Of a DNA stretch of 64,000 nucleotides, positions 45,146 to 59,504 are shown one piece after another. The stretch is from Candidatus Woesearchaeota archaeon (GTDB taxonomy: Archaea > Nanobdellota > Nanobdellia > Woesearchaeales > UBA10216), in the NCBI GenBank assembly GCA_016180195.1, contig JACPBS010000004.1, forward strand, positions 17,485 through 81,484, in the 5' to 3' direction. The translations under genes were made by a program, and so were the position numbers. The notes under the pieces are model-generated. The model saw only the letters and a program-made list of their open reading frames with translations. It ran no database searches and was not told where the DNA came from. Each line of letters starts with the position of its first letter. The first letter of the stretch is position 1.

Positions 45146-45704
45146 ATTCAAGAAAATAAAGAAGGATGGCTTGAGGCCTTATTTCCTTGATGTTAGGAAC
45201 AGGCTTGGGAAAGGGTTTGTTCATTCCAGGAGCTTGCAGGTCCAGAAGAGGTTTTCAGGCCTTGTGGAGTATAGCGAGGCAGATACCATAATGTTCTATT
45301 GTTCTACTGGTAATGAGGTTGAAACAAGGAAGGCTATTGGTGATGCGCTCAAGCTGAAAAAACGGGTTGTTCTCCCTGTTTGCGATATTTACATGAGGAT
45401 GATGAAGCCTGTCCAGTTTGGCAGGCTGAAAAAAGGGCCTCTCGGAATCCCTGAGCCTTCTGGCAAGGAGATTAACATCGATGAGATTGACATAGTGGTT
45501 GTTCCTGTTGTTTCCTTTGATGAGGAATGTGACCGTCTGGGGAGGGGTCTTGGCTATTATGATAATTTCCTGAGGGGGTTAAAGGCGGTTAAGGTCGGTT
45601 TTGCTTTCGATTGCCTTAAGACGGATAATGTTCCGAGGGAGGATCATGATATTCAGCTTGACAAGATAGTTACAGAATCCAGGGTTATTGTTGCAAAAAA
45701 ATGA
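45129..45704 (+). CDS. 5-formyltetrahydrofolate cyclo-ligase (MTHFS)
   Basis: 191 aa. 5-FTHF cyclo-ligase family blocks (VVLPV...GRLKKGPLGIPEP...VVVPVVSFDEECDRLGRGLGYYD). Confidence 0.7.
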   Translation: MALGSEFKKIKKDGLRPYFLDVRNRLGKGFVHSRSLQVQKRFSGLVEYSEADTIMFYCSTGNEVETRKAIGDALKLKKRVVLPVCDIYMRMMKPVQFGRLKKGPLGIPEPSGKEINIDEIDIVVVPVVSFDEECDRLGRGLGYYDNFLRGLKAVKVGFAFDCLKTDNVPREDHDIQLDKIVTESRVIVAKK

Positions 45705-46270
45705 GCGAGTCTTTAGATTTTGGAATAAGAGGTCTTCAAAAGCAAGTGTTCACTATCCTTTTTTTTTCATCCTTGGCTTTTATATTGGTTTTTTCGGTGC
45801 TCCACATCCTGTCTTTGACTAAGTATTTTTTTCTTGGTATTCTTTTGGCGGTTCATTCTGTTTCTTGCTATTTTTTGAAGGGACTTAAGAGAAATCATAT
45901 AGGCATTGAGCTAATAACCCTAATTACTGTTCTTGCCGGGGTTGCTTATGGTGCAAAGGCAGGTGCTGCATTCGGGGCGTTGTCAATAGCTGCTGATTAT
46001 GTTTTTTCAGGCAGGATTTCATATTTCAGCCTGGTGACAATACCTTCATATGCGCTTATAGGCGTCATTTCAAGCCTGTTAGCTTCAACAAGCTTGCCTG
46101 TTCTCGGTGTTTTGATGGCAGTCATTTACAATGTGGCAACTTCCATCATTATTTTCTGTTTTCTCGGCGGCGATCTTGACAAGTGCATCAGGTTTGGTGT
46201 TACGGCTGTTGCATTCAATTTTCTGATATTCAGCAGCTTTGCTGGCGCATTGCTGTCTTTGATGGTTTAA
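45701..46270 (+). CDS. Integral membrane protein, ECF-transporter S-component-like (candidate folate/C1-vitamin binding component)
   Basis: 189 aa with about 5-6 TM helices. Sits between MTHFS and glyA. Function inferred only from context. Confidence 0.35.
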   Translation: MSESLDFGIRGLQKQVFTILFFSSLAFILVFSVLHILSLTKYFFLGILLAVHSVSCYFLKGLKRNHIGIELITLITVLAGVAYGAKAGAAFGALSIAADYVFSGRISYFSLVTIPSYALIGVISSLLASTSLPVLGVLMAVIYNVATSIIIFCFLGGDLDKCIRFGVTAVAFNFLIFSSFAGALLSLMV

Positions 46271-48482: not shown

Positions 48483-49511
48483 ATGGCAACCTATAAGGAC
48501 TCGGGTGTTGATATCGACGCTGCTGATTCTGCAAAGGAACTCATCAAAGGGTATGTCAGATCAACCTTCACAAAGGATTCCATAAACAATGCAGGTTTCT
48601 TCTGCGGCGGCATTAAGCTTGATCTTGGCGGTTATAATGATCCTGTTCTTATGGCCAGCACTGATGGCGTCGGGACGAAGATGATGATTGCAAGGATGAT
48701 GAACAGGTTCGATACAGTTGGTTTCGATCTTGTAAATCATTCCGCAAATGACCTGATTACTTCCGGGGCAAAGCCCCTGATCTTTCTTGATTACATAGCT
48801 TCTGAAATGGTTGACCCGAAAATCGCATCAGAATTGGTTAAAGGTGTTGCTGCGGCCTGCAAAAAGCTCGGGATGGTTTTGGTTGGGGGTGAAACCGCCC
48901 AGATGCCCGGCGTTTATGTCAAAGGCGAGACTGATCTTGCAGGAACGATAGTTGGAATTGTTGAAAAATCCGGGATTATAGATGGCAGCAGCATAAAGGA
49001 GGGTGATTCTCTTGTAGGGATTGCCTCAAATGGCTTGCATACCAACGGGTATTCGCTTGCCAGAAAGATATTGTTTGATCATTGCGGTTTTGGTGTTAAT
49101 GATTATTTTGCCGAACTTGGAGGAAGTTTGGGTGATGTTTTGCTTGAGCCCCATCGCGACTACGTGAGCACTATTTTTGAATTGAGTGCCGTGGTAAAAA
49201 TCAAGGGCATTGCTCACATAACGGGCGGGGGCATCACCGATAACCTTCCAAGGATTCTTCCAAAAGGCCTCGGGGCTGTGATAAGTACAAACAGCTGGGT
49301 GGTTCCTCATGTTTTCAGATTTCTCCAGGAAAAGGGGGATGTTCATTTTGACGATATGTTCCGCACTTTTAACATGGGGATTGGCATTATTGTGGTTGTG
49401 GACAAATCCGATGTTCCTGTAATCGTTGACAGGTTGAAAAGGATGGGGGAAAAATCATGCATAATGGGCTCAGTGGTCAGGGGAAAGGGTGTGAGCTATG
49501 TTGAGGGTTGA
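48483..49511 (+). CDS. purM: Phosphoribosylformylglycinamidine cyclo-ligase (AIR synthetase)
   Basis: 342 aa. Conserved DGVGTK and GGETA blocks. Confidence 0.9.
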   Translation: MATYKDSGVDIDAADSAKELIKGYVRSTFTKDSINNAGFFCGGIKLDLGGYNDPVLMASTDGVGTKMMIARMMNRFDTVGFDLVNHSANDLITSGAKPLIFLDYIASEMVDPKIASELVKGVAAACKKLGMVLVGGETAQMPGVYVKGETDLAGTIVGIVEKSGIIDGSSIKEGDSLVGIASNGLHTNGYSLARKILFDHCGFGVNDYFAELGGSLGDVLLEPHRDYVSTIFELSAVVKIKGIAHITGGGITDNLPRILPKGLGAVISTNSWVVPHVFRFLQEKGDVHFDDMFRTFNMGIGIIVVVDKSDVPVIVDRLKRMGEKSCIMGSVVRGKGVSYVEG

Positions 49512-52320
49512 AATCTATCCTAAGGGAAGGGATTTCCGCGGTGATGCGTTGAAAAAATCTCTTTATGAAGATTTAGGGATAGATTGCAGCTGCGTGGCCG
49601 TTGCCGATGTTTACAGCATTGACGGGATTAATGATAGTGAGAAAGTCGTTGCTGAGCTTTTTTCTGATCCGCTGGTTAATGAGTGTTTTGATGGAAACAG
49701 GAGTTTTAGCTCATCCTGGATAATCGAAGTCGCGTATAAGAAGGGAGTCCAGGACCCTTCAGAGCTTAGTGCTCTTCGGGCGCTGCAGGATATCGGGGAA
49801 ATGCCTTCTTCAGTCAAGGCATCTAAAAAGACAATAATTGCGGGAGTTTCCGAAGCTGAAGCAAAAAGAATTGCGTTGTTCATCGCTAATCCTGTGATCC
49901 AGGAATATAAGCTCGGATTTGAAAAGGTTTCTTTGGTCGATAAGCCATACGTTTTTTCCGAAAGCCAGATCTCGATTGTTGAGATAATTGGAAGGAATGA
50001 TTCGGATCTGGTTGAGATCAGCAGGAAAGGTCTTCTCTCGCTGAACATTGAGGAAATGAGGGCGATACGGGATTATTTTTTAGGGCTTGGGAGGAATCCG
50101 ACTGATGGCGAGATCGAGACGATTGCGCAGACCTGGAGCGAGCACTGCAAGCACAAGACTTTCAGTTCAATAATAGATTACTCCGAAAATGGAAGGACTG
50201 TTGTCATTGACGGCCTGTTCAGCAGCACCATTGTAGCCGCAACCAAAAAGATCAGGAAAGATTGGCTTGTTTCTGTTTTCAAGGATAATGCCGGCATCAT
50301 CAAGTTTGATGAGAACAATAATCTGGCTTTCAAGGTAGAGACTCATAACCATCCTTCTGCACTCGACCCTTATGGTGGGGCTGGAACTGGTATCGGGGGA
50401 GTTATCAGGGATATTCTTGGAGCCGGCCTTGGGGCGAATCCGATCTTCAACACCGATGTTTTTTGTTTTGCCAGCCCGGATTATTCTGGGGAAATCCCGG
50501 GGAAGATTCTGGCGCCTAAAAGGATAATGAAAGGTGTTGTCTCTGGTGTCAGGGATTATGGCAACAGGATGGGAATACCCACGATCAACGGCTCCATCAT
50601 CTTCAATGATGATTTTCTCGGTGCACCTCTTGTTTTCTGCGGGACCTGCGGCTTGATTCCTTCAGGACTGGAGAAGAAGCGGGCATCCCCTGGGGAACTT
50701 ATTGTCGTTGTCGGGGGAAGGACTGGGAGGGACGGCATTCACGGTGCTACTTTCAGTTCCGCTGTTCTTGACGAGTCTTCTCCTGCAAGCGCTGTGCAGA
50801 TCGGGAATGCTATTGAGGAGAAGTGCACGATGGATGCTCTTTTGCGTGCAAGGGATAGAGGGCTTTATAGTTGCGTAACAGACTGTGGGGGAGGCGGGTT
50901 TAGCTCTGCAATTGGTGAGATGGCTGCCGGGTGCGGTGCTGTTGTTTATCTTGAGAAAGCTCCCTTGAAATATGAAGGCATGTCTCCATGGGAAATATGG
51001 ATTTCCGAGTCGCAGGAGAGGATGATCATTTCTATTCCAAAGAGGAATCTTGATAAATTCCTGGCTGTTTGCAGGGTCGAGGAAGTAGATGCTTTTGTGA
51101 TAGGTGAATTAAATGACACGGGGAAGCTAGTGGTTAAATATAACGGAAAAAATCTTGTTGACCTTGACATGGATTTCTTGCACAACGGATTGCCGAGAAG
51201 AAGAAGGATTGCGTCGTGGAAAGCCCCGGTATTGTCCGAGCCTGAACTCCCTGAAAAAGGTGATTATTCTGATGTTCTTATTAAGCTCATTTCTCATCCC
51301 ACAATAGCGAGCAAAGAATGGGTTATTAGGCAGTATGATCATGAAGTGCAGGCTTCGACTGTAATCAAGCCTCTTGTTGGGGCTTTTAATGACGGCCCGG
51401 GTGACGCTTCTGTTGTCAAGCCGCTATCCAGCTCGATCAGGGGCGTTGTTGTTGCACACGGCATAAATCCTCTTTTCAGCATGATTGATCCTTATTGGAT
51501 GGCGGCCTCGGCTATTGATGAAGCTATGAGGAACATAGTTTCGGTGGGAGGCAACCCAGGCCATACTGCAATTCTCGACAATTTCTGCTGGGGAAGCGTG
51601 AATGATGAAAGCCTTGGGAGGCTTGTTAGGGCTTCAAAGGCATGTCATGATTTCTCGATTATGTTCGATATTCCTTTTATTTCAGGAAAGGACAGCCTGC
51701 ATAACGAGTTCGTTATCGGAGACCGGAAGATAAGCATTCCTGACACCCTTCTTATTTCTGCAATCTCTGTCATTGGTGATGTGGGAAGATGTGTTACCAT
51801 GGATGCAAAGAAAGCAGGAAATAGTGTTTACATTGTCAGCAGGACTTATGATGAGCTTGGAGGCAGCTATTATTACGGGCTTTACGGTGAGACAGGGAAA
51901 AATGTCCCTATTGTAAGGGAAAATGCAAGGATTGCCTTTGAAAGGATTCATTCTGCGATCTCCGGCGGTCTTGTAAGGAGTTGTCACGACTGTTCTGAAG
52001 GAGGGATTGCTGTTTCTGCTGCTGAAATGGCTTTCTCAGGGAATCTGGGAATGAGTATTTCCCTGGATAAGGTTCCGTTTGAAGGCAAGTCAAGGGACGA
52101 CAAGGTTCTTTTCTCCGAATCTAATAGCCGTTTTATTGTTGAGGTCGAAAAAGGCATGGAGGAAAAATTCGAGTCTGCAATGGAAGGTGTGGAGGTGGCT
52201 AGGATAGGGGAAATTACTGCTGGCCGCGATTTTATTGTTCACGGTTTGGATGGAAAAATAGTGGTTAACGCAGCCATTTCAAGCCTTAAGAATTCATGGC
52301 AGGGTACGTTCAGATGGTGA
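49498..52320 (+). CDS. purL: FGAM synthase II (PurL) with N-terminal PurS-like module(s) fused
   Basis: 940 aa. Residues 1-75 are PurS-like (MLRVEIYPKGR...DPLVNE), with a second PurS-like segment ending ANPVIQEYKL. The rest is small-type PurL. Confidence 0.85.
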   Translation: MLRVEIYPKGRDFRGDALKKSLYEDLGIDCSCVAVADVYSIDGINDSEKVVAELFSDPLVNECFDGNRSFSSSWIIEVAYKKGVQDPSELSALRALQDIGEMPSSVKASKKTIIAGVSEAEAKRIALFIANPVIQEYKLGFEKVSLVDKPYVFSESQISIVEIIGRNDSDLVEISRKGLLSLNIEEMRAIRDYFLGLGRNPTDGEIETIAQTWSEHCKHKTFSSIIDYSENGRTVVIDGLFSSTIVAATKKIRKDWLVSVFKDNAGIIKFDENNNLAFKVETHNHPSALDPYGGAGTGIGGVIRDILGAGLGANPIFNTDVFCFASPDYSGEIPGKILAPKRIMKGVVSGVRDYGNRMGIPTINGSIIFNDDFLGAPLVFCGTCGLIPSGLEKKRASPGELIVVVGGRTGRDGIHGATFSSAVLDESSPASAVQIGNAIEEKCTMDALLRARDRGLYSCVTDCGGGGFSSAIGEMAAGCGAVVYLEKAPLKYEGMSPWEIWISESQERMIISIPKRNLDKFLAVCRVEEVDAFVIGELNDTGKLVVKYNGKNLVDLDMDFLHNGLPRRRRIASWKAPVLSEPELPEKGDYSDVLIKLISHPTIASKEWVIRQYDHEVQASTVIKPLVGAFNDGPGDASVVKPLSSSIRGVVVAHGINPLFSMIDPYWMAASAIDEAMRNIVSVGGNPGHTAILDNFCWGSVNDESLGRLVRASKACHDFSIMFDIPFISGKDSLHNEFVIGDRKISIPDTLLISAISVIGDVGRCVTMDAKKAGNSVYIVSRTYDELGGSYYYGLYGETGKNVPIVRENARIAFERIHSAISGGLVRSCHDCSEGGIAVSAAEMAFSGNLGMSISLDKVPFEGKSRDDKVLFSESNSRFIVEVEKGMEEKFESAMEGVEVARIGEITAGRDFIVHGLDGKIVVNAAISSLKNSWQGTFRW

Positions 52321-53075
52321 ATGCAATTGTATTGAGGGGTTTCGGAATTAACTGCAACAATGAGACTGAATGCGCATTAAAGCTTGCCGGCGCAAATACT
52401 GCACAGGTGCATGTAAATGAGCTTATTGGAGGAGAAAAGCAGCTTTCAGAATTCCAGATCCTTGTTATTCCAGGAGGTTTTAGCCATGGCGATGATTTGG
52501 GTGCAGGAAGGATACTTGCGAACCAGATTAGGCATTCGCTAAAATCGGAAATGCAGGATTTCATAGCCAGAGGCAATCTTGTTGTGGGCATTTGCAATGG
52601 CTTTCAGGTTTTGGTAAAAACAGGCTTCTTGCCAGGGAACTGCAACGCAACCCTTGCGAACAATGACTCGGGCCGATTTGAGGACAGATGGGTAACAGTA
52701 AAGTCTTCTTCGGATAACTTATTCACTAAGGGAATCAAGAGCATGTACATTCCTGTTAATCATGGTGAGGGAAAGTTTGTTGCTGGCGAGGAAGGCTTAA
52801 GGCTGCTGGAAAAAAATGATCAGGTGGCGTTCAGATATTGCGACGAACTGTTAAATGAATCATCCTGTTATCCAATAAACCCAAATGGCTCCCTTCTGAA
52901 TATAGCTGCCATTACAAGCAAAGAGGGGAATGTTTTGGGTATAATGCCTCACCCGGAGAAATTTATTTCGCGGCTTCAGCATCCTAGGTGGACTCGCGAA
53001 AGCCTTCCTGATGAGGGTGACGGCCTGGCTTTGTTCAGGAACATGGTTGAGTATGCTGAGAAAAAGCTTTTCTAG
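52314..53075 (+). CDS. purQ: FGAM synthase I (glutaminase subunit PurQ)
   Basis: ATG 52314 gives MVNAIVLRGFGINC. GATase catalytic GICNGFQVL and C-terminal HPE. Confidence 0.85.
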   Translation: MVNAIVLRGFGINCNNETECALKLAGANTAQVHVNELIGGEKQLSEFQILVIPGGFSHGDDLGAGRILANQIRHSLKSEMQDFIARGNLVVGICNGFQVLVKTGFLPGNCNATLANNDSGRFEDRWVTVKSSSDNLFTKGIKSMYIPVNHGEGKFVAGEEGLRLLEKNDQVAFRYCDELLNESSCYPINPNGSLLNIAAITSKEGNVLGIMPHPEKFISRLQHPRWTRESLPDEGDGLALFRNMVEYAEKKLF

Positions 53076-53348
53076 AGCTTTCGGAAAAGTTATAGAAAAA
53101 AATATAAATAATTATTAATTCCCTGTATAAAATGTACTTGACGGCCTGATTATAACGTAAGATATTACGGTCCTTGGGGGGTTCCTACTCGTGGAAGAAA
53201 GGGAGGGCCTAGCCTTGCTGAAAGGATAGTTTCCAATCCCGGATACGCGATAGGAGAGCATTTATCCACTTTGGAAGGCCAGAGTTCTTGTTGTGGCGGC
53301 GGAAAAGCATATAATACATTGGAGAATGCTATTGAAATTGCTAGAAGG

Positions 53349-53412
53349 GCTCCTTTCAAGGATTATAGAAATCGCAGTAACTAATTTTATTGCTCAAGTG
53401 GGTTTAATGCCC
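53349..53412 (+). repeat. 64-bp direct repeat, copy 1 (9 nt beyond HEPN stop)
   Basis: gctcctttcaaggattatagaaatcgcagtaactaattttattgctcaagtgggtttaatgccc. 63/64 identical to 54584-54647. Confidence 0.9.
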
Positions 53413-53421
53413 TGTCATAAT

Positions 53422-53928
53422 CTAATGATTTGATTGCATCAGCTCTTCTGCCTTATTGATGAAGTCCAAAACCTTGTTTTCGTATTCTTCTATTGTTTCA
53501 TTGTTGAATTTTATCGTTGTTGCATAGCTTGCATCATGCCTGTCATCTTTAAGCTGTGTGTAGAGCTCAGCATCTTCCTTGCTTATGGAAAGCTCGTTTA
53601 GCAGCTTTGCCTCTTCTCTTGTTATCGCATACTCTTTGATGAGTAGGAGTATTGTCGCATAGTGGTTCTTTGATGTGTACTTTTTTCTTGTTATCAAAGC
53701 CAATGCAGAATGGTACAGTGAGTAGTACAATGTTACGACAAGCCAGTCATTGAACTTGTGCTGCTCTTTGTTGAGCTTATAGAACTCCATGTTATGCCTT
53801 GCTTTTTTCAGGTGTGATTGGGCTAGCTCAGGGTTGCTTCCTATTTTCCTTATGTGCTTTTTTTCCGTGAAAAAGACAATTTCCTGCTCAAGGAATTTCT
53901 TGTCGGAGAACAGCTTATTGATATCCAT
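53422..53928 (-). CDS. HEPN-domain protein (toxin-like partner of MNT)
   Basis: Likely start at the internal ATG at 53928 (MDINKLFSDKK...). The ORF track extends to 54003. HEPN-type R-x4-H motif context (KKARHNMEFY). Confidence 0.6.
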   Translation of the reverse strand: MDINKLFSDKKFLEQEIVFFTEKKHIRKIGSNPELAQSHLKKARHNMEFYKLNKEQHKFNDWLVVTLYYSLYHSALALITRKKYTSKNHYATILLLIKEYAITREEAKLLNELSISKEDAELYTQLKDDRHDASYATTIKFNNETIEEYENKVLDFINKAEELMQSNH

Positions 53929-54490
53929 CCAATTGTACCTCGTAAAAGCTTTGTTCTTTATGGATTGGAAATCCTGTCTTTCTTGCCTGAATGATGATGT
54001 CATCTTTATTATCCTTGAATTGGGATATTGTTGCGTTGAAAAGTGATAAAGGATGCTTCGAGGTTATTTCGGCCTCTTTCTTATTTATCGACAAGTCTGG
54101 CTTTTTTCCTGATACGACAAGAATGTCAATGTCGCTTTCATTTGTTTCCTCTTTTCTTGAAGCAGAGCCGAAGAGGATTATGGTGAAGATGTTTTCAGGG
54201 ATATTCTTCAGGAAGTTTTTGAGCGGTACTTTTACGTTTGGGCTCAGGCTGTTGAATTTTCGCATTGCTATCTCGGAGAATTTGAGGGCAAAGAGTTTTT
54301 TGTCCTTTATCTTATAGAAGGTGTTTGCCTTGGTCTTTTCTTCATCCAGGACGTTTGCTTTGGTGAGCTTTTCCAGGGCGTTTTGCAGGGAGCTATGGGA
54401 GAGTATTGTGTGCTCCTTGATCTGGTTGTAATAGAGCTTAGGCTGCTTTAGCTCAAAAAATGCCTCGTATATCTTCTCTTCTGCGTTCAT
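53915..54490 (-). CDS. MNT-type nucleotidyltransferase with N-terminal winged-helix domain
   Basis: 191 aa. Nucleotidyltransferase motifs ILFGSASRKEETNESDIDILVV. Confidence 0.75.
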   Translation of the reverse strand: MNAEEKIYEAFFELKQPKLYYNQIKEHTILSHSSLQNALEKLTKANVLDEEKTKANTFYKIKDKKLFALKFSEIAMRKFNSLSPNVKVPLKNFLKNIPENIFTIILFGSASRKEETNESDIDILVVSGKKPDLSINKKEAEITSKHPLSLFNATISQFKDNKDDIIIQARKTGFPIHKEQSFYEVQLDGYQ

Positions 54491-54583
54491 TTTGTGATTG
54501 TAAGCGATTGATATTTAAATGCTTTACCAATTTTTGGTATAAGTTTACCATATTTTGGTATTGATTCATGTTTTGCCTGAAGT

Positions 54584-54647
54584 GCTCCTTTCAAGGATTA
54601 TAGAAATCGCAGTAACTAATTTTATTGCTCAAATGGGTTTAATGCCC
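54584..54647 (+). repeat. 64-bp direct repeat, copy 2 (93 nt upstream of MNT start; overlaps the last codons of ORF 54629..55141)
   Basis: gctcctttcaaggattatagaaatcgcagtaactaattttattgctcaaatgggtttaatgccc. Confidence 0.9.
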
Positions 54648-55141
54648 CTGAGTTCAAGCAAGGTGAGTGTGCTTACCCCTGTTGCAAGGACATTTAATAA
54701 TACTAGTTCATATGCTTGTTTAGTCAAATTCGATTCAGAATCCTGCAGTCGGTAATTCGCCATTTGCAGCATATTCAATGTGTCTAAAGGGGTGAATGAT
54801 TCGTTTGTTTCATGTTCTGCAAGCTTTGAATCTGCCATGTAAAGCATGTTTTCAAGACCATCTCTGCCAGTATCCGGCATTTTTGTTAATGCTTTGTATA
54901 TATTTCCCCTTGCTTTTTCTATTGCTGCGATCGAGATGCTTTTTCCCGTGTAATATTCTAATAGCTCAGACCTAGCATGATCAATCTCGATCCGGGTTTG
55001 CTTTCCACGGTCTAGTTGTTGTGCTATGTAATCAACAGGCGGTTTGAAGAATGCCAGCGAAGCATATATAACTCCTGCAGTGCCTAATATTGTTGCTGTT
55101 GTCGTTAAAGCTTTTCTTGCATCCATAATAATCACTTTCAC
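54629..55141 (-). CDS. Hypothetical membrane-anchored protein
   Basis: 170 aa. N-terminal TM segment (TTTATILGTAGVIYASLAFF). No known motif. Confidence 0.4.
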   Translation of the reverse strand: MKVIIMDARKALTTTATILGTAGVIYASLAFFKPPVDYIAQQLDRGKQTRIEIDHARSELLEYYTGKSISIAAIEKARGNIYKALTKMPDTGRDGLENMLYMADSKLAEHETNESFTPLDTLNMLQMANYRLQDSESNLTKQAYELVLLNVLATGVSTLTLLELRGIKPI

Positions 55142-55293
55142 ATGTATTCCATGCTTTCGATTAACCTGTTCAGGTCAATGCATGATATTCCTTTTGCCTT
55201 TCAGCTTTCTTTAGGAACTGATTTCCTTCTTTTCGCGGAATTCATTTTAGCCCCGTTTTCGCAGCGAACACAAGCCGGTTCGTTTTTTTTATC

Positions 55294-56361
55294 TCATTTT
55301 GTCATTTCGTTGTATCTTATTGCTAATTCCTTTGCCCTTTCATGCCTGATTTTAGTCGCAAGTGCTGCAGCTATCCTTATTACCCTTGGATCGTCGCTTT
55401 GAGCAAATAGATCAACGGCTTTTGCATGTTGCCCAGCCCTCTCTGCAAAAAGTCCTGCCGTGTAAAAATCCCCCTGTATCTCGCATACTTTTATGCGCAA
55501 CAGGTAATCCCCGCTCTCACGCGCAATGTTGGAGGCTTTGTCCAGTAACCAGTGTTTTTCTTTGCCATTTGCTTTTTCCGATGCGGTGAAGCAGTAGTCA
55601 ATTGCCCTTTCATAAAACCCTGCCTTACCTGATAGTTCTGCGGCTTCTTCAAAATTTCCTGAGGATTCATATTTTTCCAGGATCTCTGTCAGGTATTCTT
55701 CAGGTATTGTTGTCCTGCCAGCCAGTTCTATCGCTATTGCTTGTGCATTTTCCTTGGGCAGCGCCGAAAGTAGCGGGGTTACATCAACAGCTTCCCATAA
55801 TGTTCTTTCAAGGCCATGACACTGCATGGATATGTCTTCTGCAACTCTCATCAAATCCGGATCCTCTGAGCGGGATGCATATTTAGTTGCTGTATCAATG
55901 CTTTCCCTGGCATCTTGGATTTTCCTGATCATTGCTAGGGATAGGGAGGCTCGTCCTATTTTCTTTATCTGGTCTGCATTACCTGTTTCATATTCAGTTG
56001 TAAGATAAAAAAGAAGAGGGCTCATCGAATTCCATGTTGTTAAATGTGCCAGATTTTTTGATACGTCACCGCTCATGCGAACTGCTATCTCCTCAACATA
56101 GAATTTTCCAAGAAGTTCCCCAATTCCTTCAATTGATGGATCTATTTGATGATTCCTTGCCAGTTCATTAAAATCGCTTATTTTGGGCTTATAAGCCCGT
56201 GATTCAAATTCGGCTGCACATTCGATAAATCTTCTTGCCCTGTCTTCAAGTGGCATGTCCGGTTCTGATTTTTCTGTTATGAACCTTTTCGATCTCCAAC
56301 GTGATGGGTGTCTTTTGGATGCTTCGATTTCTTCTCTTGTCAGTTTACTCATTAAACTCAC
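55294..56361 (-). CDS. Hypothetical alpha-helical (TPR-like) protein
   Basis: 355 aa. Predicted all-alpha repeat architecture. No catalytic motif recognised. Confidence 0.4.
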   Translation of the reverse strand: MSLMSKLTREEIEASKRHPSRWRSKRFITEKSEPDMPLEDRARRFIECAAEFESRAYKPKISDFNELARNHQIDPSIEGIGELLGKFYVEEIAVRMSGDVSKNLAHLTTWNSMSPLLFYLTTEYETGNADQIKKIGRASLSLAMIRKIQDARESIDTATKYASRSEDPDLMRVAEDISMQCHGLERTLWEAVDVTPLLSALPKENAQAIAIELAGRTTIPEEYLTEILEKYESSGNFEEAAELSGKAGFYERAIDYCFTASEKANGKEKHWLLDKASNIARESGDYLLRIKVCEIQGDFYTAGLFAERAGQHAKAVDLFAQSDDPRVIRIAAALATKIRHERAKELAIRYNEMTK

Positions 56362-56485
56362 CTTTGTTACTTAATAATGACGGCAAAACAGCAAATCATA
56401 TAATCTTAACCCTTATAAATTATAATTTAAATTAAAATTATAATCTTAGGGAAATTTTATATATTAAGGCAGTTCAACCTGGAAC

Positions 56486-57397
56486 ATGAAGCGAAAGATA
56501 ATACAGCTTGCGAACACCACATATGTAGTCTCCCTTCCATTAAAGTGGGTAAAAGCCCATGGTGTCCGGAAAAAAGATGAGGTGGAAGTAGCTGAGGAAG
56601 GCCGAAAAATAACAGTTTCACTTCTCGGCGAAAAAGAGCCTCTGCCGGTGGGAACAGTTATTGACGTGAGCGGGCTTGGACGTAGGATTGCTGAGTGGTC
56701 AATAGCAGCGGCTTATAAAAGGGGCTTTGACGAGATAAAGGTATTTTACAAGGGAGACCAGATAAAGTTTATCCTCAATTACGTTAGGGACATGCTTTTG
56801 GGTTTTTTCGTTACAGAGCAGACCGAGGATTACTGCGTTTTGAAGATCGTGTCAAGGGAAACTGGTTCAGAATTCAATAACCTGTTAAGGAGGGCTTTTC
56901 TTGTAGGCATCGAGCTTGCTGAAAGCAGCCTTGATCTGATCAGCAAGGGAAAGTATGATGCGCTTGCAGACCTTCTACATCTGGAAAAGACAAATAACCA
57001 ACTGACCTTGACCTGTCAGAGACTGGTCAGGAAAGGGTTTATAAGCGAAAATCCAAACGAGCTTTTCCTGGTTGCATGGCATCTTGAGAACATTGTTGAT
57101 GATTACAGGGATATGTGCATTCACCTGTCAACCACTGAAAAACCGAGGGTATCGAAAGAAATTTTGGAAACCTATTCAGAAGTCAACGGTTATTTCAGGA
57201 GCTATTACGATCTTTTCTACTCATTCAACCTGAAAAGTCTTGATGATCTGGACAGGAAAAGAGACATTATTGTTAAAAAAATCAGTAAAATGGATGGTTT
57301 TGTTTTGAATTGCCTTTCATCGATAACAAGGAAATTATCTGTTCTTTCAGCAACAATCATGTCCATTAATCTGGCTGATAAGCCTGAAGATTTCTGA
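56486..57397 (+). CDS. PhoU-like phosphate-uptake-regulator family protein with N-terminal AbrB/SpoVT-type swapped-hairpin domain
   Basis: 303 aa. N-terminus IIQLANTTYVVSLPLKWVKAHGVRKKDEVEV is AbrB/MazE-like. The remainder is a PhoU-like helical repeat. Confidence 0.55.
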   Translation: MKRKIIQLANTTYVVSLPLKWVKAHGVRKKDEVEVAEEGRKITVSLLGEKEPLPVGTVIDVSGLGRRIAEWSIAAAYKRGFDEIKVFYKGDQIKFILNYVRDMLLGFFVTEQTEDYCVLKIVSRETGSEFNNLLRRAFLVGIELAESSLDLISKGKYDALADLLHLEKTNNQLTLTCQRLVRKGFISENPNELFLVAWHLENIVDDYRDMCIHLSTTEKPRVSKEILETYSEVNGYFRSYYDLFYSFNLKSLDDLDRKRDIIVKKISKMDGFVLNCLSSITRKLSVLSATIMSINLADKPEDF

Positions 57398-58667
57398 CAA
57401 CATTATCTCTCGTCAAAAAGGGAGCTTTCGAGTGCCTGAAAAAGGACTCGAGATTCCCTCCCAAAGCGGAGCTTGCGTTTGCTGCGGTGTTGAAGTTCAT
57501 TCCTATCATGTTTCCCACTCCAACTGCCCGATTTACAATTTCAATGTATTTTTCATCACAAGGTTTGTAACTTCCTTCAATCAGCTCCTTCATTATCTGA
57601 GTATACTCCGGGCAAAGGTCTCCTGCCCTCCTTATGCCCAAGAAAAATTTTGCTGTTATATAGTTTTCATTGAAGCTCCTGCCCATTTTTGCAGCTGCTT
57701 CAAATCCTTTGTGCTTGCTGATTAAGCCGAGATAAGCACCCATTGCTTGGCAAAAATAGCTTGCATCCATGAATGGATGTTGTCCCCTTACAGAGCTTAT
57801 TGCCCTGATAAAGTCATCAGGGCCTGCTGAAAGCTCATCCGCCCTGTCAAGATCTATATGGCGTATTGACCTGGTTAGTACAAATGCAGCATAGTCCTGC
57901 GTTATCATGCCTTCGTTCAGCATCCCTAAAACCTCGAACGCCGAACAATATTGATATCCCATTAATTGAGTTATGATTTCATTATCAAGCATTACATTCT
58001 GCAGGTCAGCGTCCCTCATCCTGTATCCTGCATTTTGTGACAGGCATTTCCCTATCCTGTCAAGCTCAGCTACAAGCCCATCCCTTGATACTCCCATTCC
58101 TGAAAAAATCCTGTCGCTTATCCCGTAGTGGTCAATCAGCCTCGTAAAGCTTTCTATCAGCTTTGATGAGTAGCTGCATGGGCTTGCCTGGACAGGAAGT
58201 TCAAGGAACTGGAAAACAACCAGGTCTTCAAGTAGCCTTGTTGTAAGTCGATTGGCCACGTTGACCGCATGGGGATTTTTTAGCAGCCCTTGTTTTTGGG
58301 CTGCAGTCAGGAACGAAATTACATCATGGCCATCTATCAGCTCCATTTCAAGCGTTTGCCTAGTGACAGCAATTACCCTCGGCGGGTTTAGCCCTGCTTG
58401 ACCGCATGCTTTGTAAACCTCCTCAAATGCACATGCTCTTTCCTCTGAGCCATACTCTTTCTGCACGCATGGCTCTCTGAACTTAAGGTGGAAAATCCGT
58501 GAATCCCCTGTAGGCTGTTGAATTGCAGCCGTCTTGGTCCTAACAACCTTCCCCGTTGTTCCCCCTCTCAAAACTATTCCGAACTCTGCACTTGATGGAT
58601 CGCTTCCTACCTCTACGTAAGACCCGTCCGGATTTTTCTTTGAGTCTTGAAACAAACCAGTCAACAT
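57366..58667 (-). CDS. Putative atypical protein kinase-like / phosphotransferase fold protein
   Basis: 433 aa. Kinase-catalytic-loop-like YRMRDADLQNVMLD (compare HRDLKPEN). Otherwise unrecognised. Confidence 0.35.
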   Translation of the reverse strand: MLTGLFQDSKKNPDGSYVEVGSDPSSAEFGIVLRGGTTGKVVRTKTAAIQQPTGDSRIFHLKFREPCVQKEYGSEERACAFEEVYKACGQAGLNPPRVIAVTRQTLEMELIDGHDVISFLTAAQKQGLLKNPHAVNVANRLTTRLLEDLVVFQFLELPVQASPCSYSSKLIESFTRLIDHYGISDRIFSGMGVSRDGLVAELDRIGKCLSQNAGYRMRDADLQNVMLDNEIITQLMGYQYCSAFEVLGMLNEGMITQDYAAFVLTRSIRHIDLDRADELSAGPDDFIRAISSVRGQHPFMDASYFCQAMGAYLGLISKHKGFEAAAKMGRSFNENYITAKFFLGIRRAGDLCPEYTQIMKELIEGSYKPCDEKYIEIVNRAVGVGNMIGMNFNTAANASSALGGNLESFFRHSKAPFLTRDNVVRNLQAYQPD

Positions 58668-58748
58668 TTACCACTTAATAGTTACACTAATATTTAAGCC
58701 TTTCGCAAAATAATTCAATTTAAAAACATCGGTTTTTTATCCATAAAA

Positions 58749-59504
58749 ATGGGAAAGATCCTGGTTGTTTTCGGCAGCAAAAGCAACAAGCCTGTCTATG
58801 ATAGAGTAATTGCCTGCCTTAAGCGCCTTGGTGCGGATTTTGAGTTCAGGGTATGTTCTGCTCACAGGACCCCTGAGGTGCTTGACAAAATGCTGAAGGA
58901 GGATTATTCGGTTGTGATTGCAGGAGCAGGTTTGGCAGCCCATCTTCCAGGTGTCATCGCCTCGAAGACAACGGCCCCTGTTATCGGAATACCTTGCAGA
59001 GATAATTTCGGTGGAATGGATTCTCTGTTGTCTATAATCCAGATGCCTCCGGGAATCCCTGTTCTTTCTGTCGGGATAGGCCTGGCAGAGGATGCTGCAG
59101 AATCCGCTGCCAAAATATTGGACCCTCCGGATGGTGTTTCGATTGTATCTAAAGCGCCTTATTCTGAAAAGGCGGCTGAAATTCTGGAAATGCTGGATGT
59201 TCAATATAAGCTTTCAGGTTCTTTAAATAGCAAATGCATAAATTTGAGATTTGAGGATCTCAATCATATCAGCGAAGCTGATGAAAGCGAGGCTCTGACC
59301 ATCAACTGCCCTGTCTCCGAGAATGTTCATGAAGGTATTTTAAATCTTTCAAAAATTAAGTCAGGGCTTTGGGTAGGCCTTAACCGTGCTGAGAATGCTG
59401 CTATCGCGGCAGCAGAGATACTGGGTAGGAAGAGGGAGCTCGATGGGTACAGGAAACAGGCTGCTTCTGCTGTAATTGATGACGACAGGGTGGAAAGATG
59501 CTGA
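58749..59504 (+). CDS. purE: N5-CAIR mutase / AIR carboxylase catalytic subunit (PurE) with about 90-aa C-terminal extension that looks like a degenerate partial PurE repeat
   Basis: Core ILVVFGSKSN...SAHRTPE...GIPVLSVGIGLAEDAAESAAKIL. The extension repeats the last block (GLWVGLNRAENAAIAAAEILG). Confidence 0.75.
   Translation: MGKILVVFGSKSNKPVYDRVIACLKRLGADFEFRVCSAHRTPEVLDKMLKEDYSVVIAGAGLAAHLPGVIASKTTAPVIGIPCRDNFGGMDSLLSIIQMPPGIPVLSVGIGLAEDAAESAAKILDPPDGVSIVSKAPYSEKAAEILEMLDVQYKLSGSLNSKCINLRFEDLNHISEADESEALTINCPVSENVHEGILNLSKIKSGLWVGLNRAENAAIAAAEILGRKRELDGYRKQAASAVIDDDRVERC

What the first reader, a model, noticed from the sequence alone, without database searches (positions are those of the whole stretch)
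53076..58748. About 5.7-kb island splitting the purine operon between purQ and purE
purL-purQ ends at 53075 and purE-HAD-purC-purB-purP resumes at 58749. The interval encodes only non-purine genes. These are the DR-bracketed HEPN/MNT cassette, a membrane protein, a 355-aa all-alpha (TPR-like) protein, a PhoU-like protein with an AbrB-type N-terminal domain and a 433-aa kinase-like protein with catalytic-loop-like YRMRDADLQNVMLD. Gene orientation flips relative to the pur genes. The combination of a TPR-like protein, a PhoU/AbrB regulator and a kinase-like protein next to a TA cassette looks like an integrated accessory island. Its function is unknown and it may be defence- or signalling-related.
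Basis: partly seen in the sequence, partly recalled or inferred. Interest (0 to 1): 0.5.

Follow-up and report, generated by a model that had tools for sequence, protein, structure and literature searches.

The report
Old gene gap, not one island
The 5.7-kb stretch between purQ and purE of this Woesearchaeota genome is not one imported island: it is an old gap between two purine gene clusters that holds a lineage-conserved regulator/kinase gene pair, and only a small toxin-antitoxin cassette clearly arrived recently.

Summary
purQ ends at 53075 and purE starts at 58749. The six ORFs between them are non-purine, and five of them lie on the opposite strand.

The 'single integrated accessory island' reading is only partly right. 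A relative (purQ 77%, purE 65% identical) has the same gap, with four of the same elements in the same order:
- a small ORF after purQ;
- a fast-evolving membrane protein;
- the 303-aa AbrB-PhoU regulator (67% identical);
- the 433-aa protein (49% identical).

All other genes in the gap differ. The regulator and the 433-aa gene have native composition. The window holds no tRNA gene, and no integrase-type family matched.

Only the HEPN/MNT cassette shows an insertion signature. It is bracketed by a 75-nt direct repeat (71/75 identical) that duplicates the tail-to-tail ends of two genes. The relative shows the empty site.

The convergent, 3'-overlapping pairing of an AbrB-PhoU gene with a kinase-like gene recurs in many DPANN contigs in unrelated neighbourhoods. 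This pairing is the most interesting result, and I found no description of it. The function of the pair is inferred, not shown.

The parts
52296..53075 (+). purQ (FGAM synthase glutaminase subunit); the last gene of the upstream pur/folate cluster and the left flank of the gap
   Evidence: PF13507 E 8e-79. 77% identical to the L001 purQ.
53142..53377 (+). Small conserved reading frame directly after purQ. It has no canonical start before the TTG at 53271. It is a homologue of the 92-aa gene that follows purQ in L001. Its 3' end lies inside direct-repeat copy 1.
   Evidence: tblastn 45% identity over 60 aa, E 2.8e-11. phmmer E 1.9e-10. Frame and start analysis.
53338..53412 (.). Direct-repeat copy 1 (75 nt). 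It holds the functional 3' end of the small ORF and a relic of the 3' end of the membrane-protein gene ('GIKPT*').
   Evidence: 71/75 identical to copy 2.
53422..53928 (-). HEPN-like protein. It is 168 aa as annotated at NCBI; the open frame extends to 54003. It is the presumed toxin of the cassette.
   Evidence: PF05168 21.6 bits, E 2.6e-4, just under the cut-off of 22. The exact 168-aa protein is MBI2133140.1. The motif reads RHDASY rather than a canonical Rx4-6H (read from the sequence).
53915..54490 (-). wHTH + minimal nucleotidyltransferase (MNT). It is the presumed antitoxin, lies upstream of the HEPN gene and overlaps it.
   Evidence: PF18765 E 2e-8, PF01909 E 1e-7, NF047752 MntA E 2e-6 (sub-threshold), PADLOC PDC-M05A E 4.8e-15. 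The GS...DID NTase motif is visible in 'LFGSASRKEETNESDIDILV'.
54573..54647 (.). Direct-repeat copy 2 (75 nt). It holds the functional 3' end of the 170-aa gene and a relic of the small ORF's 3' end.
54629..55141 (-). Fast-evolving membrane protein (165-170 aa). It is the positional orthologue of the L001 219-aa protein.
   Evidence: Hydropathy segment 141-159. Local alignment score 66, z 6.9, 0/300 shuffles. No family hits. GC3 0.345.
55294..56361 (-). Orphan 352-355-aa protein, transcribed divergently from the AbrB-PhoU gene. Function unknown.
   Evidence: No hits in Pfam above threshold, NCBIfam, PADLOC, PHROGs or PDB. No homologue in about 175 related loci. Singleton cluster. GC3 0.354, CAI 0.70.
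56486..57397 (+). AbrB/SpoVT-type DNA-binding domain fused to a PhoU-like helical domain (303 aa). It is a lineage-conserved regulator.
   Evidence: PF04014 in 34/35 and PF01895 in 13/35 homologues. Profile against PhoU 1t72 E 7.8e-6, aligning the E201xxxD205 motif. 61-67% identical in L001, L003 and L006.
57366..58667 (-). 433-aa kinase of the aminoglycoside-phosphotransferase/choline-kinase fold, from a very small, highly divergent family. It is convergent with the AbrB-PhoU gene and overlaps its 3' end by 32 nt.
58668..58748 (.). AT-rich divergent intergenic region with TATA-like elements about 25 nt upstream of both the 433-aa gene and purE. This implies that purE-HAD-purC-purB-purP is a separate transcription unit.
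   Evidence: Sequence read (TTTAAAAA at 58719-58726). Promoter function is inferred, not tested.
58749..59504 (+). purE; the first gene of the downstream pur cluster and the right flank of the gap
   Evidence: PF00731 E 1.4e-46. 65% identical to the L001 purE.

Best explanation
The interval is a long-standing gap between two purine transcription units (purF...purQ and purE...purP). It has composite content and is not one integrated element.

**(1) Native core.** This is a vertically inherited pair of convergent genes whose 3' ends overlap.
- One gene encodes an AbrB/SpoVT-PhoU DNA-binding regulator.
- The other encodes a very divergent kinase of the aminoglycoside-phosphotransferase/choline-kinase fold.
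- The same kind of pairing recurs across DPANN archaea in unrelated neighbourhoods, so the two genes are probably functionally coupled.
- Inferred mechanism: the regulator binds DNA through its swapped-hairpin AbrB domain, and its PhoU-like helical domain, with a conserved ExxxD site, acts as the sensing or partner-binding module. The kinase phosphorylates an unknown small molecule or protein in the same circuit. Convergent overlap could add antisense or transcriptional-interference coupling.

**(2) Other old residents.** A small ORF after purQ and a fast-evolving membrane protein are also conserved in position.

**(3) A recent insertion.** A 1.16-kb HEPN/MNT (type VII-like) toxin-antitoxin cassette was inserted exactly between the tail-to-tail ends of those two genes. 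The insertion duplicated 75 nt, so both genes kept intact 3' ends.

**(4) An orphan.** The 355-aa protein is lineage-specific and of unknown origin.

**Shown:** the anatomy, the synteny, the folds and family assignments, and the repeat structure.
**Inferred:** all biochemical functions, the promoter assignment and the coupling of the pair.
For: **Synteny.**
- L001 has purQ - small ORF - membrane protein - ... - AbrB-PhoU - kinase - ... - purE. Identities are 77, 45, weak, 67, 49 and 65%. All other gap genes are unrelated.
- In L001 the small ORF and the membrane gene are tail to tail with a 10-nt spacer. A single copy of the window's repeat would give a 16-nt spacer, so L001 shows the empty site.

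**Recurrence of the pair.**
- 433-family members sit next to an AbrB-type gene in all seven loci that hold one: window, L001, L003, L006, L093, L094 and L095/96. Only the window and L001 are near pur genes.
- The two most distant members were found by sequence alone. They again sit next to a ~310-aa gene with a weak PF04014 (AbrB/MazE) hit.
- In 46 metagenome loci with at least 2 kb downstream of an AbrB-PhoU gene, about 29 have a convergent ORF of at least 350 aa that ends within -71 to +30 nt of its stop.
- Of those, 15 belong to one kinase-like cluster, many members with N-terminal TPR. Pfam APH is above threshold in two of the ten partners scanned: L107 at 34.3 bits and L157 at 29.0 bits.

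**Fold of the 433-aa protein:**. **Regulator family:**

**Composition.** The pair is native. The HEPN/MNT segment has GC 0.385 against 0.447 for the window.

**Mobility markers.** No tRNA gene or Rfam match in the window, and no integrase-type hit among the six ORFs.

**purE promoter.** A TATA-like element precedes purE.
Against: - Only one relative with pur flanks was available (L001). 'Conserved across the lineage' therefore rests on a single comparison, and the one genome-collection scan returned no close relatives.
- The 433-aa family and the APH-like partner cluster share no significant profile similarity (hmmsearch and hhalign). Their equivalence rests on fold, a Pfam class and position.
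- About a third of AbrB-PhoU loci have unrelated or small downstream genes, such as a HerA-like ATPase, a DAO oxidoreductase and iPGM. Several large partners (L007, L091, L092, L142, L178) remain unclassified.
- The ATP-anchoring lysine of the kinase is not invariant in the 7-sequence alignment, so catalytic activity is uncertain.
- The interval as a whole has the most deviant tetranucleotide profile in the window: 0.165 against a maximum of 0.156 for the other windows.
- The mechanism that produced a 75-nt duplication around a cassette with no recombinase is unknown.
Confidence: 0.72

Rival explanations
1. One reading: the whole 53076-58748 interval is one horizontally acquired accessory island, for defence or signalling, that split a formerly contiguous purine operon.
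For: - Five of the six ORFs are on the opposite strand to the pur genes.
- GC is lower across 53.0-55.2 kb.
- The interval has the largest tetranucleotide distance in the window.
- Four proteins are singletons or orphans.
- A TA cassette is present.
Against: - The pair, the small ORF and the membrane protein occupy the same gap in a relative that has diverged to 65-77% identity in the pur proteins.
- The pair has native codon usage, and its divergence matches that of the neighbouring housekeeping genes.
- There is no tRNA gene, no integrase-type hit, and no repeat at the outer borders.
- purQ-purE is not a conserved junction elsewhere.
Confidence: 0.07
2. The AbrB-PhoU gene and the kinase-like gene are neighbours only by inertia. 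There is no functional link, and the recurrent convergent arrangement reflects slow rearrangement or a shared terminator.
For: - The genes are convergent, so they are not co-transcribed.
- About a third of AbrB-PhoU loci lack a kinase-like partner.
- The partners fall into sequence clusters that cannot be linked by profiles.
Against: - The arrangement persists while all other flanking genes change. AbrB-PhoU identity falls to about 30% and 433-family identity to about 20%.
- Distant 433-family members recovered by sequence alone are again next to an AbrB-type gene.
- Where the partner can be classified (the 433 family and the APH-like cluster), it is an APH-type kinase rather than a random gene.
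Confidence: 0.25
3. The pair is itself a toxin-antitoxin-like or defence module. A kinase toxin analogous to HipA would be neutralised by an AbrB/MazE-fold DNA-binding antitoxin.
For: - The N-domain matches PF04014, 'MazE antitoxin'.
- The partner has a protein-kinase-like fold.
- TA cassettes accumulate around the pair: HEPN/MNT here, MazE/ParE in L001 and MazE/PIN in L093.
Against: - The orientation is convergent, not operonic.
- The regulator is 300 aa with a PhoU-like domain and is as conserved as the housekeeping genes, at 61-67%.
- There are no PADLOC hits.
- The structural neighbours are small-molecule kinases (APH, ChoK, MTR kinase), not HipA.
Confidence: 0.04

Closest known systems
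Archaeal SpoVT/AbrB-PhoU fusion regulators, annotated 'phosphate uptake regulator' (e.g. T. kodakarensis TK2245, listed among chromatin-associated proteins in PMC7325993)
   Same: - An N-terminal AbrB/MazE-type swapped-hairpin domain (PF04014).
- A C-terminal PhoU-like helical region with the ExxxD motif, aligned to PhoU structure 1t72.
- A length of about 300 aa.
   Different: - The window's own protein scores below the Pfam cut-offs: PF04014 at 23.6 against 24.7 bits, and no PF01895 hit.
- Only one stretch of the profile (140-215) matches PhoU repeats.
- The recurrent convergent pairing with a kinase-like gene appears in none of the papers my searches returned.
Aminoglycoside phosphotransferase / choline kinase family of protein-kinase-like small-molecule kinases (Pfam APH PF01636; PDB 3csv, Rv3168 3att, corramycin phosphotransferase 8agy, choline kinases)
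   Same: - A catalytic-loop D219-x4-N224.
- A metal-binding Asp, D272, in 'HIDLD', followed by 'DDF', in the same order as the APH 'IDxE...DLA' motifs (the motif comparison is from my own knowledge).
   Different: - No sequence profile detects it: Pfam, NCBIfam and PDB phmmer/hmmsearch give nothing even at E 10.
- An insertion of about 35 residues lies between the catalytic loop and the Asp motif.
- There is a long extra C-terminal helical region (300-430).
- There is no invariant beta-3 lysine, and the His of HxD is absent.
- The family is extremely small.
HEPN/MNT (HepT/MntA, type VII) toxin-antitoxin cassettes, abundant in archaea
   Same: - An MNT gene upstream of a HEPN gene and overlapping it.
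- The NTase GS...DxD motif.
- An N-terminal wHTH on the MNT protein.
- A small mobile two-gene unit.
   Different: - The HEPN hit is just under threshold (21.6 against 22 bits), and the motif reads RHDASY rather than a canonical Rx4-6H.
- The cassette is bracketed by a 75-nt duplication of host sequence. That is unusually long for a target-site duplication, and no recombinase is present.

Membership tests
Genomic island (horizontally integrated element) | Absent from the same site in related genomes | tested here: not met
   L001 carries the AbrB-PhoU/kinase pair, the small ORF and the membrane protein in the same purQ-purE gap. The feature is met only for HEPN/MNT and the 355-aa gene.
Genomic island (horizontally integrated element) | Integration machinery or target: integrase/transposase, tRNA gene, flanking repeats at the island borders | tested here: not met
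   No tRNA gene. No integrase- or transposase-like family among the six ORFs. The only long repeat brackets the 1.16-kb TA cassette, not the interval.
Genomic island (horizontally integrated element) | Atypical composition or codon usage | tested here: inconclusive
   The left half is atypical: HEPN/MNT GC 0.385, and the 170-aa and 355-aa genes have GC3 of about 0.35 against 0.479±0.039. However, the 170-aa gene is positionally conserved. The pair is typical: GC3 0.45, CAI 0.74 and 0.725.
PhoU family (PF01895) | Helical-bundle repeat with the conserved E/DxxxD metal-binding motif, detectable by profile | tested here: met
   The family profile A3 hits PhoU 1t72 (E 7.8e-6) and 2i0m (E 2e-4). E201 and D205 are at least 90% conserved and align to the PhoU 'ERxGD' motif. 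13/35 homologues hit PF01895. The window protein alone has no PF01895 hit.
AbrB/SpoVT/MazE swapped-hairpin DNA-binding domain (PF04014) | N-terminal domain of about 45 aa that matches the profile | tested here: met
   34/35 family members hit PF04014 (best E 7.5e-11). The window protein scores 23.6 bits, E 5e-5, against a cut-off of 24.7.
APH/choline-kinase-like kinases (PF01636 and relatives) | Bilobal protein-kinase-like fold | tested here: met
   [not shown]
APH/choline-kinase-like kinases (PF01636 and relatives) | Catalytic loop HxDxxxxN and the downstream metal-binding Asp | tested here: inconclusive
   D219-x4-N224 is present, N224 is invariant and D219 is in 6/7. D272 is invariant. The His is absent, and there is an insertion of about 35 aa between the motifs. 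Residue roles were inferred from the alignment and not checked in 3D coordinates.
APH/choline-kinase-like kinases (PF01636 and relatives) | ATP-anchoring beta-3 Lys and alpha-C Glu | tested here: inconclusive
   No invariant Lys in the N-lobe across the 7 members. A 'GGTTGK' glycine-rich segment is conserved in only 3 members.
APH/choline-kinase-like kinases (PF01636 and relatives) | Match to the family's sequence profile | tested here: not met
   No Pfam, NCBIfam or PDB sequence hit for any 433-family member, even at E 10. hhalign against the APH-positive partner cluster gives probability 0.2%.
HEPN/MNT type VII toxin-antitoxin | MNT with the GS-x(9-13)-DxD nucleotidyltransferase motif, adjacent to a HEPN gene | tested here: met
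   PF18765 and PF01909 hits, with 'GSASRKEETNESDID' visible in the sequence. The genes overlap and lie on the same strand.
HEPN/MNT type VII toxin-antitoxin | HEPN Rx4-6H RNase motif | tested here: inconclusive
   PF05168 scores 21.6 bits against a cut-off of 22. The C-terminal motif reads 'RHDASY', with no His 4-6 residues after the Arg (read from the translation).
HEPN/MNT type VII toxin-antitoxin | Toxicity of HEPN and neutralisation by MNT-dependent AMPylation | not testable with these tools
   This needs expression experiments.

The most novel reading that the evidence does not exclude
The convergent, 3'-overlapping pair 'AbrB-PhoU regulator + APH-fold kinase (often TPR-fused)' may be an undescribed, widely conserved two-gene sensing and regulatory module of DPANN archaea. 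In it, a small-molecule or protein phosphorylation step would be coupled to a PhoU-type phosphate- or metal-sensing transcription factor. In this lineage the module sits inside the purine cluster and may tune nucleotide or phosphate metabolism. The 433-aa proteins would be a new, sequence-unrecognisable family of that kinase.
Probability: 0.3. Interest if true: 0.55.

Novelty: new variant of a known kind. Interest (0 to 1): 0.33.

Why it matters
**As an 'island', the finding is ordinary.** It is a variable inter-operon gap that collects toxin-antitoxin cassettes.

**Two things are worth keeping.**
- The 433-aa protein founds a tiny family, with 7 members among 1.84 billion cluster representatives. 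Only structure prediction places it in the APH/choline-kinase fold. This is a concrete case of annotation 'dark matter' in DPANN archaea that can be resolved.
- Its pairing with an AbrB-PhoU regulator recurs across many Woesearchaeota/Nanoarchaeota contigs in unrelated neighbourhoods. That gives a testable hypothesis for a regulatory circuit in organisms with almost no characterised regulation.

**A further small point.** The 75-nt duplication around the HEPN/MNT cassette, with an empty-site analogue in a relative, is a clean example of how such cassettes land between convergent genes without damaging them.

Tried and rejected
2. **Sequence searches for the 433-aa family.** Pfam, NCBIfam, PADLOC, PHROGs and PDB all gave nothing.
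3. **Linking the 433 family to the larger convergent partners (582-952 aa).** hmmsearch and hhalign were not significant. The kinase motifs I saw by eye in L007, L091, L092, L142 and L178 are not counted as evidence.
4. **purQ scan of the genome collection for close-relative synteny.** It returned only distant, mostly bacterial purQ loci (≤52%). These were useful only to show that pur gene order is variable.
5. **Non-coding RNA in 53140-53340.** No Rfam hit, and fold z-scores of -0.36 and +0.55. The stretch is instead a conserved small coding frame.
6. **Viral-contig scans for the MNT and the 355-aa proteins.** No relatives.
7. **Other contigs that carry the identical 433-aa protein.** All have the same arrangement. 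The longest (L097) ends inside the repeat, so these contigs say nothing about presence/absence polymorphism of the cassette.
8. **355-aa protein against the positionally equivalent proteins of L001 and L003.** No similarity, z < 1.5.
9. **afdb50 fold library.** It was unavailable.
10. **First metagenome scan with the broad alignment A3.** It was rejected for lack of a conserved stretch and repeated with A5.

Full report
**Source and anatomy.**

The 433-aa protein is identical to HYU11_00525 of a Candidatus Woesearchaeota archaeon MAG, so the window is from a DPANN archaeon.

On the + strand a long cluster runs purF-purD-purT-purN-(5-FTHF cyclo-ligase)-x-glyA-folD-purM-purL-purQ and ends at 53075. 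A second set, purE-HAD-purC-purB-purP, starts at 58749.

Between them lie these ORFs:
- a HEPN-like ORF, 53422-54003(-);
- a wHTH-MNT, 53915-54490(-);
- a 170-aa hydrophobic protein, 54629-55141(-);
- a 355-aa protein, 55294-56361(-);
- a 303-aa protein, 56486-57397(+);
- a 433-aa protein, 57366-58667(-).

A 75-nt direct repeat (53338-53412 and 54573-54647, 71/75 identical) brackets HEPN/MNT. The only unverified detail is the 'TPR-like' label of the 355-aa protein, which rests on a sub-threshold PF23774 hit.

**Is it an island?**

The 433-aa protein has only a handful of relatives. One of them (49% identical) lies on an 11.4-kb contig of GCA_053533825.1 (L001), which also carries purE-HAD-purC on one side and purQ-purL on the other. 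Identities to the window are 77% for purQ, 73% for HAD, 65% for purE and 67% for the 303-aa protein. The pair has therefore diverged about as much as its housekeeping neighbours.

Two further elements are conserved in position:
- A 92-aa gene follows purQ in L001. It matches an unannotated + strand frame at 53196-53372 in the window (45% over 60 aa, E 2.8e-11).
- The L001 219-aa membrane protein aligns weakly but significantly with the 170-aa protein (z 6.9, 0/300 shuffles).

Everything else in the gap differs. L001 has 291-, 242- and 356-aa proteins and two small cassettes, one of them MazE/ParE.

Other tests:
- Composition agrees with a native pair: GC3 0.45, CAI 0.74 and 0.725 against 0.746±0.028. 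The HEPN/MNT segment has the lowest GC (0.385 against 0.447). The 170-aa and 355-aa genes have low GC3 (about 0.35).
- The window has no tRNA gene and no Rfam match. None of the six ORFs matches an integrase-type family.
- In 80 purQ loci from other organisms the order of pur genes is highly variable. purE follows purQ closely in only one. So no canonical purQ-purE junction was broken here.
- A TATA-like TTTAAAAA about 25 nt upstream of the purE ATG suggests a separate transcription unit (inference).

Conclusion: this is an old gap with variable content around conserved residents, not one integrated island.

**The one clear insertion.**

Repeat copy 1 holds the true 3' end of the small ORF (...APFKDYRNRSN*) and a relic of the membrane gene's end (GIKPT*). 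Copy 2 holds the true end of the membrane gene (GIKPI*) and a relic of the small ORF's end.

Collapsing the repeat gives two convergent genes 16 nt apart. In L001 the orthologous genes are convergent and 10 nt apart, with no cassette between them. A 1.16-kb HEPN/MNT unit therefore landed between two gene tails and duplicated 75 nt.

- The MNT has the GS...DID motif, an N-terminal wHTH, and a PADLOC PDC-M05A hit (E 4.8e-15).
- The HEPN hit is marginal (21.6 against 22 bits), and its motif (RHDASY) is not canonical.
- How a recombinase-less cassette produced a 75-nt duplication is unexplained.

**The conserved pair.**

The 303-aa protein belongs to a family common in Woesearchaeota and Nanoarchaeota (55 hits).
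- 34/35 members hit PF04014 (AbrB/MazE) and 13/35 hit PF01895 (PhoU).
- The family profile hits PhoU structures 1t72 (E 7.8e-6) and 2i0m.
- The hits align a nearly invariant E201xxxD205.

The 433-aa protein has no sequence-level annotation anywhere.
- An exhaustive HMM search of 1.84 billion representatives found 5 strong and 2 weak members.
- With those 7 sequences AlphaFold2 gave pLDDT 85.7 and pTM 0.82.
'HIDLD' supplies the invariant D272.
- No invariant beta-3 lysine was found, so activity is plausible but unproven.

**The pairing recurs.**

In every 433-family locus the partner is a convergent AbrB-type gene. These loci are the window, L001, L003, L006, L093, L094 (where a HAD gene is intercalated) and L095/96. 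The 3' ends usually overlap by 32-84 nt, and only two of these loci are near pur genes.

Starting instead from AbrB-PhoU homologues, loci L007, L008, L091 and L092 each have a convergent overlapping ORF of 582-952 aa with no precomputed Pfam hit beyond a faint TPR.

A metagenome scan gave 80 more loci.
- Of the 46 with at least 2 kb downstream, about 29 have a convergent ORF of at least 350 aa that ends within -71 to +30 nt of the regulator's stop.
- 15 of these form one cluster with a kinase-like C-terminal domain, many with N-terminal TPR. Two of the ten partners scanned pass the Pfam APH threshold: L107 at 34.3 bits and L157 at 29.0 bits. L140 is just under, at 22.1 bits.
- Unrelated partners also occur: a HerA-like ATPase in five loci, a DAO oxidoreductase and iPGM. 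Several large partners remain unclassified.
- The 433 family and the APH-positive cluster cannot be linked by profiles. Their equivalence rests on fold class and position.

I judge functional coupling likely but not shown. My literature searches returned no description of this pairing. An AbrB-PhoU protein is listed among chromatin-associated proteins of T. kodakarensis (PMC7325993).

**Mechanism (inferred).**

The regulator would bind DNA through the AbrB domain. Its PhoU-like domain would act as the sensing or partner-binding module. The kinase would phosphorylate an unknown small molecule or protein in the same circuit. Convergent overlap could add antisense coupling. A specific link to purine regulation is weak, because the pair sits elsewhere in other lineages.

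**Verdict.**

The finding as framed, an accessory island that splits an operon, is largely not supported. The interval is an ordinary variable gap with a recent TA insertion. The residual novelty is a sequence-orphan APH-fold kinase family and its recurrent pairing with AbrB-PhoU regulators in DPANN archaea. Interest is 0.33.

Noticed in passing
window 40334-63594: This Woesearchaeota contig carries a near-complete de novo purine set plus folate one-carbon genes: purF, D, T, N, M, L(S), Q, E, C, B, archaeal-type purP, glyA, folD and a 5-FTHF cyclo-ligase. They form one co-directional array. DPANN lineages differ in whether they keep purine biosynthesis (PMC7414124), so this organism may be less host-dependent for nucleotides.
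   Followed up: partly
window 52296-53075 (purQ); loci L010-L016, L026, L030, L038: The closest purQ relatives among species-representative genomes are bacterial: Hydrogenedentota 52%, Brocadiaceae/Scalindua 47-49%. The best archaeal hit is 43% (Micrarchaeota). CPR bacteria (Saccharimonadales L026, Curtissbacteria L030) share a similar cluster layout that includes archaeal-type purP, and L026 also has a HAD gene. This hints at cross-domain transfer of the pur cluster among ultra-small organisms.
   Followed up: partly
window 53142-53377 (+): A conserved small reading frame after purQ is homologous to a 92-aa gene in L001. It has no ATG/GTG/TTG start before 53271 and is not in the NCBI annotation. 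It may be a decaying gene, a non-canonical start or a mis-called small protein. It is Cys-rich ('SSCCGGG').
   Followed up: partly
window 49498-52320: The purL ORF is 940 aa, with an N-terminal extension of roughly 200 residues ahead of the 'SEHCKHK' region. It may be a purS-purL fusion. This was not checked against profiles.
   Followed up: no
L001 2838-3919; L093 253-911; L007 12883-13509; L156: Toxin-antitoxin cassettes sit close to the AbrB-PhoU/kinase pair in several unrelated loci, as they do in the window. These are MazE/ParE and a second small pair in L001, MazE/PIN in L093, and MNT/HEPN-like ORFs in L007 and L156. It is unclear whether this is more than the general abundance of TA cassettes in DPANN genomes.
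   Followed up: no
L003 12377-15212; L006 102-3304: In the two non-pur loci of the 433 family, the gene divergent from AbrB-PhoU (482/587 aa, E 5e-57) and the next gene (456/466 aa, E 2e-12) are conserved between the two loci. This forms a four-gene block. The window and L001 have unrelated genes at that position.
   Followed up: no
L095/L096 2430-4649: In the locus of the most distant 433-family member, a canonical 739-aa Ser/Thr protein kinase (PF00069) lies immediately upstream of the 483-aa kinase-like gene.
   Followed up: no
window 45701-46270: A 189-aa ORF with no Pfam or NCBIfam hit is embedded between the 5-FTHF cyclo-ligase gene and glyA inside the pur/folate cluster. It may be an unrecognised pathway component.
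   Followed up: no
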